64,000 nucleotides of DNA from assembly GCF_055900595.2 (NCBI RefSeq), contig NZ_CM148325.1; one strand, written 5' to 3'. The position numbers are program-made. Shown one piece after another: positions 3,001 to 6,000 of this stretch. How positions within the stretch are numbered: position 1 is the stretch's first letter; each line of letters begins with the position of its first letter.

Positions 3001-6000
3001 GGGCAGGTTTCATTCGCCATGTGGAGTTCCAGCACGGCATCAGCATTTTTCGCCAGCGTGGAATTTCCATTATTGGTAATGGCGATAATTCGGTTGCCGA
3101 AATTTTTCAGTGAAGGAACTAGCTTGAGGATTTCATCCGTTTCACCGCTGGCAGAAATAAGGATCAGAAGATCGTAAGGCGTAATCATGCCCAGATCGCC
3201 ATGGAAAGCTTCTGCAGGATGAATAAAGAAACTAGGCGTACCCGTAGAGGCCAGCGTCGCTGACATTTTACGACCGACATGCCCTGATTTACCCATTCCC
3301 GAAAGAATAACGTGCCCTTTACAGTTCATTATCAAATTAAGGACACGCTGGTACTGCCCGGAATCCAGTTGTTTAGACAAGTTTTGTAATGCTGCGCTTT
3401 GTTCTGCCAGAGTCTGGCGAACAGAGGTAATTAGATATGGATCGATAGTACTGCTCTGGTCATCAGGTAAATGTCTTTCAGACATATCAGCTCCTTTGCA
3501 CGGAAATAATGCCACAGTCACAACAAACCCGAACCCACTATAATTTATTTATGCTAAATCAATGGGTTGTAACAAAATTTTTAATGAATATAAAACCATG
3601 GTCAGTCCATGCTTATATGCAGGACTTATCACCTTCTTATTAAGTCGCAATGTCTCATGGAGGTGCGAAGACGCTGCAATATTACAGGCGAGAAAGGGAA
3701 CCAAATTTTGCCCACCTATTTAACACACTCCTACATTATGAACAAGGAATTTAGGATTTTTATCATTTGTTAAAATGTTTCCTACTTGACTATTAATACC
3801 AAAAACAATTTATCAATTGATTATTTTCTTGTAAAAAAAGAACGTATGACTATGTTATTAATAAATAAAACACGCAAATAATGGTGATGTTGTTTTGTGA
3901 TTAATTATTTAAATTCGGCATAATAAACAGGTTGATAATTTCTACGTAAAGAAGAGGAAAGTAATAAAATTTTAGCGGTGACTATTGAATGATATAATAG
4001 TTGTAGTGTTGATTATTTCTGGTAATGAATGCGGAATTAAATCTGGCCGGATTGTATTTTTGCTATATCTATTTTTCAGGAGATTATTATTAAATAGAAA
4101 AATAACAATGGTGATTATCTCCGGTTGAGCTGGAGTCACGTATGCCAGCGAGTGCTTTCTTCCGGGCCTTCCTTCACTTCAGAGAAAGAGCCTATGGAAA
4201 AGAGGCAATCATCAGGCTCTTTTTGAGTCATATGCGCCGATAATCAACTGTCTTGAACGTAAAAATTATGGAGCAACATGATGCTACGATTCATTTCACT
4301 CTTCGTTCTTTCTGAGCATTGCGTTCAGGATGGTCAGCAATTTACGCATACAGTCAACCAGCGCCACTTTTTTGGTTTTTCCGGCTGCTGGCAGATGCAT
4401 GTAAAACGCCTCTTTCACCGGATTAAACCAGGTTACCACAAGCGCTGCCATGTGCAGGGCTGCTCTTGCCTCCGTACGCGCACTGGCGTCGTTCGGCCAG
4501 CAGATATGTGTGGGATAACAGGGATGTTATGTGAACTGAACTGTGTTTTGTTAGCGGGGGATGTTTATTGATGATTCGGGAGTGTTTAAGACCTGATGGC
4601 GTTATGCACCCAAGTTTATTTTATATAAAGATCCAAAAGCAAAAACCCGCCTTGTGGGCGGGTTCTTAAGAATTAGTGGTGCCCGGAATCGGAATGAAAC
4701 TGATTGTATAACAAATTGTTTTATATAGATTATTTTGTATTTGTTGTTTTTGAGGCCACCAATGAGGCCCCCATGTGCAATTCGAATTCTTTTGACGCTA
4801 TAATCCCTCTTTTTTGTGCTTTGCTGTAATCATTTGGTCTGGTTCGATATGCTGAATTGTGGAATCGTACTTAACGCGTTTGTTAGCTGGTCAGAACACT
4901 TAGCGCTGTTTGTCTGAAACTGGAATAGGCTTCTTCCCAGTTAATCTGTGTATTACCAAATACCATCGGTTTAACAAATCGTTGAAAGCGCAATTTGTGT
5001 ACAGGATAATCCCGGAGTGCATCCAGCCCTTTCTTAAGTTCATCAACTGGTGAGCTACAAAATTGTGGGTACTGGTTACCATAGCTGAATACATATCTGA
5101 ACAAAATTTTTCAATACAGGAACATTCACACCTTTTTCCCTGACAATGCAGTAGTTGTCGTAAATGTGACGTACCAGAAACTCATCATCCTGTTGTTCGG
5201 GATTACGAAGATGTGCTGCTGTTCTTCGCATCATGGAGATGAGCTTTTCAGCCTGAGTGGATAAAATGGTGGCACAGGGGAATGCTGTTACAGGTGTACC
5301 TTTACCCGTTAACTCCGTGACAAGGGAATAAATATCTCTGCTTTCCGGATGTTCCAGCAGAGTGCTTTCCATCAACTCCAGCTTAATAAATGGACGAAGA
5401 CAGGGGACTTGTGCAAATGTCTGGGGATAACGTACCGAGATTTCGTTATAACGATACTCATCACGTGTTATACGGGCGTTTTCATTATCCAAGCTGAAAA
5501 TGTCAGAATTATGAATAACATCCGTGATTATTTGCACGATTTCCTTGCGAATTTTTCTTCTCTTGTCTCTGCCATTTTGCATAAAGTTCTCTGTTGGCAC
5601 GAGCTTTATATCAATATCTTCTGACATTCTGTTTAGCGAGATACCTGCTTTTGATAATGCGGTACCTCCTGCAAACACGAGAGTATGTGTTTCTGGTTTT
5701 ATTTCTTTTAATAATCTTAAAAGATCAACCACAAAATAATCTTTTTCGACGATAGCGACAGATTCAATATCCAGTGCATCGGCAACGTCAGGAAATAATG
5801 ATGTTAATTCAGGCATTGATTTTACTTTTCCCTACTATTAACATTCTTTTAAATCGAGAAGGTGTTTTTATCCCCAGAGATACAGGAATTTGTGTGGACT
5901 GACCTTTATTGTAGCATTCCGTTGCTCCTGCCAGACGGTATCTGATATTCAGGCGCTCCAGGGCCTCTGTAATTACTGCAGCAGAGCCCCCAGGCGCTGC

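What the first reader, a model, noticed from the sequence alone, without database searches (positions are those of the whole stretch)
4641..4700. tRNA-Phe 3'-end-like repeat next to the capsule locus: probable island terminus
A 24-nt stretch matches the reverse complement of the tRNA-Phe 3' end at roughly 22 of 25 positions, without a complete tRNA. Islands inserted at pheV/pheU are bounded by such direct repeats. Its position between the kps region and the AbiE/CbtA/Ag43 backbone suggests the island cargo lies to the right and the kps locus is outside the repeat. A terminator hairpin and an IS110-type remnant sit just left of it.
Basis: partly seen in the sequence, partly recalled or inferred. 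Interest (0 to 1): 0.45.

Follow-up and report, generated by a model that had tools for sequence, protein, structure and literature searches.

The report
Known pheV island end repeat (attR)

Summary
Window 4677-4699 (+) is the reverse complement of TTTCATTCCGATTCCGGGCACCA. It matches the 3' end of E. coli tRNA-Phe at 18/19 positions from the CCA end (21/25 overall), is unique in the window and is not expected by chance. This 23-mer is letter for letter the attR printed for GI-pheV of CFT073, UMN026, Nissle 1917 and JJ1886 in PMC11537424. The 48 nt to its left (4629-4676) are identical to the K-12 pheV 3' flank, so the hairpin at 4640-4668 is pheV's own terminator on the minus strand. In the two closest complete genomes the intact pheV, in the same orientation and next to a P4-type tyrosine integrase, lies 75-80 kb to the right, beyond the window. 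All four combinations of kps and island occur in complete genomes. The kps+/island- genomes carry exactly the predicted empty site (227 genomes). So the island cargo (AbiE, CbtA/yee, Ag43, nan, iha, sat, iuc/iutA) lies to the right of the repeat and kps lies outside it. The IS110 remnant is also confirmed. Verdict: observation confirmed, interpretation supported, already known, low interest.

The parts
4677..4699 (-). attR of GI-pheV: a displaced copy of the last 23 nt of tRNA-Phe. The core is 19 nt (4677-4695) with one substitution at 4688. On the minus strand it reads TTTCATTCCGATTCCGGGCACCA.
   Evidence: identical to the attR in Table 1 of PMC11537424.
4629..4676 (-). Native chromosomal 3' flank of pheV (the right half of attB), 48 nt identical to K-12 MG1655.
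   Evidence: It resembles the K-12 pheU flank at only 22/70 positions.
4640..4668 (-). Original rho-independent terminator of pheV (stem-loop, then TTTTTGCTTTT). It now lies downstream of the island's last operon (AbiEi/AbiEii).
   Evidence: the same sequence follows intact pheV in K-12 and GMF054.
4296..4478 (-). C-terminal fragment of an IS110-family transposase, on the kps side and outside the island.
   Evidence: PGAP annotation in relatives; NF033542 positions 282-342 of 343, E = 7e-9. Also present in island-free kps+ genomes.
1282..3521 (-). kpsE and kpsF (group 2 capsule region 1), the last genes of the kps block, outside the island.
   Evidence: ORFs; annotation of colinear genomes.
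4883..6204 (-). First island genes inside attR: AbiEii toxin (split into two ORFs, 4883-5104 and 5076-5816) and an AbiEi-like DUF6088 antitoxin (5809-6204).
   Evidence: Pfam PF08843, PF19570 and PF13338; annotated as frameshifted in FDAARGOS_448.
4700..64000 (.). Part of the GI-pheV cargo: yee/CbtA module, Ag43, YfjI, nan-like sialic acid module, iha, sat, iutA and iucD-C. The island continues about 19-20 kb beyond the window to the integrase and pheV.
   Evidence: Colinearity with FDAARGOS_448 and 28Eco12 and their annotation; module list in PMC11537424.
23090..23296 (-). AlpA-family HTH protein (68 aa), a candidate excisionase or recombination directionality factor of the island.
   Evidence: Pfam PF05930, 36.2 bits against a cutoff of 21. 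The role is inferred and was not tested.

Best explanation
The stretch is attR, the far-end attachment site of an intP4.1-type GI-pheV genomic (pathogenicity) island of extraintestinal pathogenic E. coli. A circular element carrying an attP with about 19 nt identical to the 3' end of tRNA-Phe was recombined by its P4-type tyrosine integrase into the 3' end of pheV. The tRNA was rebuilt at the integrase end (attL), with an island-borne hairpin behind it. The old 3' end of the tRNA, together with the native pheV terminator, was pushed 75-80 kb away and is what the window shows at 4629-4699. The kps capsule locus with its IS110 remnant was a separate insertion between yghD and the pheV terminator, and it lies outside the island. 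Shown here: the sequence identities, the orientation, the empty sites and the independence of kps and island. Inferred: integrase-mediated integration and the 19-nt crossover region. Also inferred: the G-to-T substitution in attR arose as a variant of an originally perfect repeat and lowers excision, and the stranded pheV terminator now ends transcripts leaving the AbiE operon toward kps.
For: attB, attL and attR compare as expected for site-specific integration. attL matches the empty site over all 45 nt compared up to and including CCA and diverges immediately after. attR matches the empty site over 20 of the last 23 tRNA nt and over all 50 downstream nt compared. The 23-mer is identical to the published attR of CFT073, UMN026, Nissle 1917, ABU83972 and JJ1886. 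Intact pheV and a 421-aa integrase with Arm-DNA-bind_3, Phage_int_M and Phage_integrase domains sit at the other end, in direct orientation, in both closest genomes. 227 complete genomes carry the exact empty site with kps. 764 of 5426 carry the attR junction. EC4 has the island without kps and a perfect 19-nt repeat. K-12 has neither kps nor island. The gene modules match those described for intP4.1_GI-pheV. The general mechanism is described in PMC7545054.
Against: The window ends before the integrase and pheV end, so the source genome's own attL was not seen. The window is a mosaic of two relatives rather than identical to either. No arm-type integrase binding motifs shared by the two island ends were detectable by k-mer comparison. 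No excision or integration activity was or could be tested, and the island is heavily decayed by IS elements, so it may no longer be mobile.
Confidence: 0.96

Rival explanations
1. The similarity to the tRNA-Phe 3' end is a chance match in an intergenic region.
For: The stretch is short, 21/25, and there is no tRNA in the window.
Against: 0 matches in 100 shuffles. The adjoining 48 nt are identical to the native pheV 3' flank. The stretch is identical to a published attR. Empty-site genomes place an intact pheV at exactly this position.
Confidence: 0.005
2. The repeat bounds the kps capsule locus: kps is the island cargo and the AbiE/Ag43 side is backbone.
For: kps is itself absent from K-12 and sits at the pheV-yghD spacer. 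Older literature often counts kps as part of pheV-associated islands (own knowledge).
Against: Island-free genomes keep kps joined to intact pheV through the same terminator. EC4 has attR and the yee module with no kps. The K-12-type flank lies on the kps side of the repeat. The integrase and pheV lie to the right.
Confidence: 0.01
3. It is the decayed stump of a second, once complete tRNA-Phe gene (a tandem duplication or a deleted pseudogene), not a recombination product.
For: Only the 3' end survives, with mismatches at its inner edge.
Against: Similarity stops abruptly after about 24 nt at the same point in divergent islands (window and EC4), as expected for an attP/attB core boundary. The distal flank is the native pheV flank, while the intact pheV carries a foreign flank. 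This reciprocal pattern is produced by insertion, not by duplication and decay.
Confidence: 0.02

Closest known systems
attR of intP4.1_GI-pheV (CFT073, UMN026, Nissle 1917, ABU83972 and JJ1886 GI-pheV; PMC11537424)
   Same: The 23-nt sequence TTTCATTCCGATTCCGGGCACCA is identical. The modules are the same (yee, flu/Ag43, nan, iha, sat, shiF-iuc-iutA, pap remnants). The size is similar, about 75-80 kb in relatives against 74-105 kb published. The position next to kps is the same.
   Different: Nothing of substance. Local details include a split AbiEii gene, an extra IS66-family element at 50603-53300 and mosaic relatedness to different strains.
attR of the ST131 EC958 GI-pheV (TTTCATTCCGATTCCGGGCATCA)
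   Same: Same island type and the same first substitution.
   Different: EC958 carries a second substitution (CACCA to CATCA) that the window lacks.
23-bp attR of other GI-pheV types (TTCGATTCCGAGTCCGG-CACCA; strains 536, APEC O1, 55989 and others)
   Same: Same target (pheV 3' end) and the same principle of a tRNA-derived direct repeat.
   Different: A different repeat variant (one-base deletion, longer match), different intP4 alleles and different cargo.
Phage P4 and CP4-type prophage integration into the 3' ends of tRNA genes
   Same: A tyrosine integrase with an arm-binding domain sits next to the rebuilt tRNA, the old tRNA 3' end is displaced to the far end, and an AlpA-type small HTH protein is present.
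   Different: No phage structural or replication genes were seen here. The cargo consists of virulence and fitness modules interrupted by IS elements.

Membership tests
GI-pheV (intP4.1 type) attachment site attR | Sequence equals the published attR, a 19-bp imperfect repeat of the pheV 3' end | tested here: met
   The reverse complement of window 4677-4699 is identical to the Table 1 entry of PMC11537424.
GI-pheV (intP4.1 type) attachment site attR | Intact pheV with an adjacent P4-type integrase at the other end, in direct orientation | tested here: met
   Met in the two closest complete genomes (domains). The window's own far end lies beyond base 64000 and could not be read.
GI-pheV (intP4.1 type) attachment site attR | The DNA beyond the repeat is the native 3' flank of the target tRNA gene | tested here: met
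   48 nt identical to the K-12 pheV flank including the terminator. The match is to the pheV flank, not the pheU flank.
GI-pheV (intP4.1 type) attachment site attR | Empty-site genomes exist that join the two flanks through one intact tRNA | tested here: met
   227 complete genomes cover at least 80% of the constructed empty-site sequence. The gene order is confirmed in GMF054.
GI-pheV (intP4.1 type) attachment site attR | Cargo typical of the type (flu, yee, nan, iha, sat, iuc/iutA) | tested here: met
   Annotation of colinear genomes compared with the module list in PMC11537424.
GI-pheV (intP4.1 type) attachment site attR | Functional recombination site (excision to attB plus a circular attP) | not testable with these tools
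   This needs PCR or long-read evidence. The mismatch at 4688 may reduce excision (discussion in PMC11537424).
tRNA gene or pseudogene | Cloverleaf-capable sequence covering the acceptor, D, anticodon and T arms | tested here: not met
   ARAGORN finds none. Similarity to tRNA-Phe ends after about 24 nt. No tRNA hit in Rfam at E <= 1.
Rho-independent terminator (the pheV terminator) | GC-rich stem-loop followed by a T-run, downstream of the gene on its strand | tested here: met
   Pattern scan on the minus strand at 4668-4640; fold; the same element follows intact pheV in K-12. Termination activity was not tested.

The most novel reading that the evidence does not exclude
The stranded pheV terminator and tRNA stub may have taken on a new role. 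They lie directly downstream of the island's last operon (AbiEi/AbiEii, minus strand) and upstream of the kps region 1 promoter area. They could therefore insulate capsule expression from island read-through. Separately, the single G-to-T change in attR, absent from the perfect repeat of strain EC4, could be what locks this virulence island into ExPEC lineages. Neither idea is excluded by my data. The second has already been suggested in PMC11537424.
Probability: 0.25. Interest if true: 0.2.

Novelty: already known. Interest (0 to 1): 0.07.

Why it matters
It fixes the island boundary in this window to the base. Everything from 4700 rightward is GI-pheV cargo. Positions 4629-4676 are native pheV flank, and kps is an independent neighbour. 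That is useful for annotation and for island typing of ExPEC strains (attR variant, intP4.1 type). It adds no new biology, because the same repeat, island type and boundary rule are published.

Tried and rejected
(1) I searched for integrase arm-type motifs shared by the two island ends, comparing window 4696-4890 with the pheV-int spacer of FDAARGOS_448. Only two shared 8-mers were found against 1.15 expected, and none of 9 nt or more, so there is no evidence either way. (2) Rfam at E <= 1 over 4000-5500 gave only two sub-threshold hits (P9 sRNA at 22 bits against a gathering score of 43; Trp leader at 19.5 against 41). I attribute both to the hairpin and reject them. (3) Pfam gave no hit for the 60-aa IS110 fragment; NCBIfam was needed. 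(4) A 25-mer pattern search with at most 3 mismatches found nothing, because the true match has 4 mismatches in 25. The 19-mer core search succeeded. (5) pheU was considered as the target and rejected on flank identity (22/70 against 55/70) and on gene context. (6) I tried to find a complete genome identical to the whole window and found none. The window is 99.5-99.85% identical to FDAARGOS_448 overall and 100% identical to 28Eco12 over two right-hand segments (39227-48417 and 57396-64000).

Full report
OBSERVATION. Window 4677-4700 (+) reads TGGTGCCCGGAATCGGAATGAAAC. Aligned without gaps to the reverse complement of E. coli tRNA-Phe, it matches 11 bases, then has one mismatch at 4688, then matches 7 more. 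It is the only site in the 64-kb window with at least 17/25 on either strand. A 19-mer search allowing two mismatches found this one site against none in 100 dinucleotide-preserving shuffles. ARAGORN finds no tRNA anywhere in the window.

SURROUNDINGS. The window is colinear at 99.5-99.85% with the chromosome of the urinary isolate FDAARGOS_448 (NZ_CP023960.1). The exceptions are a short divergent patch at 10634-10761 and an extra 2.7 kb at 50603-53300. Two right-hand segments (39227-48417 and 57396-64000) are 100% identical to strain 28Eco12. From the annotation of these genomes, kpsE, kpsF and a partial IS110-family transposase lie to the left of the repeat. To the right lie AbiEii/AbiEi, the yee/CbtA module, Ag43, YfjI, a nan-like sialic acid module, iha, sat and iutA-iuc. 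The IS110 fragment (4296-4478, minus strand) matches the last ~60 residues of NCBIfam NF033542 at E = 7e-9. A terminator-like hairpin lies at 4668-4640 on the minus strand.

THE OTHER END. In FDAARGOS_448 a tRNA-Phe lies on the minus strand at 4454714-4454789. On one side is a 421-aa tyrosine recombinase and on the other are yqgA and speC, so this is pheV. The arrangement is the same in 28Eco12, with the same integrase protein accession. The integrase carries Arm-DNA-bind_3, Phage_int_M and Phage_integrase domains. The tRNA has the same orientation as the stub in the window, so the two form a direct repeat. The DNA between them measures 75.2 kb in FDAARGOS_448 and 79.8 kb in 28Eco12 (coordinates). 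The window ends about 19-20 kb short of that end.

ATT-SITE ANATOMY. In K-12 MG1655, pheV is followed directly by CTAATTCTTAAGAACCCGCCCACAAGGCGGGTTTTTGCTTTTGGATCT and then by the spacer to yghD. The 48 nt left of the repeat in the window (4629-4676) are identical to this K-12 flank, after which similarity stops. I compared three sequences in tRNA orientation: the empty site of strain GMF054, the integrase-side junction of FDAARGOS_448 and the window. attL equals attB through all 45 nt compared up to CCA and diverges immediately after. attR equals attB at 20 of the last 23 tRNA positions and at all 50 downstream positions compared. This reciprocal pattern is what site-specific insertion of a circle into the 3' end of a tRNA gene produces (general mechanism: PMC7545054). 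The K-12 pheU flank matches the window flank at only 22/70 positions, so the target is pheV.

EMPTY SITES AND INDEPENDENCE FROM KPS. I built the predicted empty site from window 4100-4676 joined to intact pheV and the yqgA side. 227 complete E. coli genomes cover at least 80% of it in one colinear piece, and the best hits cover 100% at 99.4-99.6% identity. In GMF054 the gene order is kpsE, kpsF, IS110 remnant, pheV, yqgA. Conversely, strain EC4 has yghD, the K-12-type spacer, the terminator, attR and the yee module, with no kps. Its repeat is a perfect 19-mer. K-12 has neither insertion. In FDAARGOS_448 a kps block of about 23.6 kb replaces 101 nt of the K-12 yghD-pheV spacer. With the window's own kps+/island+ arrangement, all four combinations exist. 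The repeat always marks the island side and the terminator the chromosomal side. 764 of 5426 complete genomes carry the attR junction.

COMPARISON WITH WHAT IS KNOWN. The paper 'Evolution of the pheV-tRNA integrated genomic island in Escherichia coli' (PMC11537424) lists attR = TTTCATTCCGATTCCGGGCACCA for CFT073, UMN026, ABU 83972, Nissle 1917, JJ1886 and others. [quoted passage not shown] The reverse complement of window 4677-4699 is identical to that string. The modules the paper names for this island type (pap, sat, iha, flu, iucABCD, iutA, nan, yee) are those found here. The feature is thus a known member of a described family.

MECHANISM, SHOWN AND INFERRED. Shown: the sequence relationships, the orientation, the empty sites and the independence from kps. 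Inferred from established knowledge of tRNA-integrating islands: integration was catalysed by the P4-type integrase, with crossover inside the 19-nt core. The G-to-T change at 4688 is a lineage variant, because EC4 has the perfect core. The mismatch may reduce excision, as argued in PMC11537424. An AlpA-family HTH protein at 23090-23296 (-) (PF05930) is a candidate directionality factor. The stranded pheV terminator now lies 3' of the AbiE operon and may stop read-through toward kps. This last point is my inference and is untested.

DEAD ENDS. A k-mer comparison found no shared arm-type motifs between the island ends. No Rfam family reached its gathering score. Pfam did not recognise the IS110 fragment.

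VERDICT. The feature is already known and of low interest (0.07). Its value is for annotation: it gives a base-precise island boundary.

Noticed in passing
L003 5640-5714 (FDAARGOS_448, attL flank) and L009 982-1051 (K-12 pheU flank); not in the window: The hairpin-containing sequence that follows the rebuilt pheV at the integrase end of the island is nearly identical to the 3' flank of pheU in K-12, next to the yjdQ pseudogene. K-12 pheU therefore seems to carry the integrase-proximal stump of an island of the same family.
   Followed up: partly
window 4883-5816 (-): The AbiEii toxin gene next to attR is split into two overlapping ORFs (73 aa and 246 aa). It is annotated as frameshifted in FDAARGOS_448 but is intact (894 nt) in 28Eco12.
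   Followed up: partly
window 50603-53300: An extra 2.7-kb element relative to FDAARGOS_448, with three same-strand ORFs (225, 115 and 523 aa) laid out like IS66 tnpA/tnpB/tnpC. It appears to be inserted within an IS30 copy, and the flanks overlap by 9 bp in the alignment. The family assignment was not verified by a profile search.
   Followed up: partly
window 1-64000: Mosaic relatedness. Window 1-50602 is closer to FDAARGOS_448 (99.5-99.7%) than to 28Eco12 (98.6% over 186-39236). Segments 39227-48417 and 57396-64000 are 100% identical to 28Eco12. A short patch at 10634-10761 did not align with FDAARGOS_448. This is consistent with the module-wise recombination described for GI-pheV.
   Followed up: no
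window 61707-63051 (-): The iucD ORF is 425 aa and ends about 67 nt before the end of the region annotated as iucD in relatives, where the gene is flagged as frameshifted. The aerobactin synthesis gene may be defective in this lineage.
   Followed up: no
window 23090-23296 (-): A small AlpA-family HTH gene (PF05930) lies inside the island and is a candidate excisionase or directionality factor.
   Followed up: partly
L001/L004 (FDAARGOS_448 record 4355867-4379490), left of and overlapping window 1-4628: The whole kps block of about 23.6 kb, including an IS3 pseudogene and the IS110 remnant, replaces just 101 nt of the K-12 yghD-pheV spacer. Its right boundary is at window 4628/4629, 48 nt from pheV. 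How kps was inserted was not examined.
   Followed up: partly
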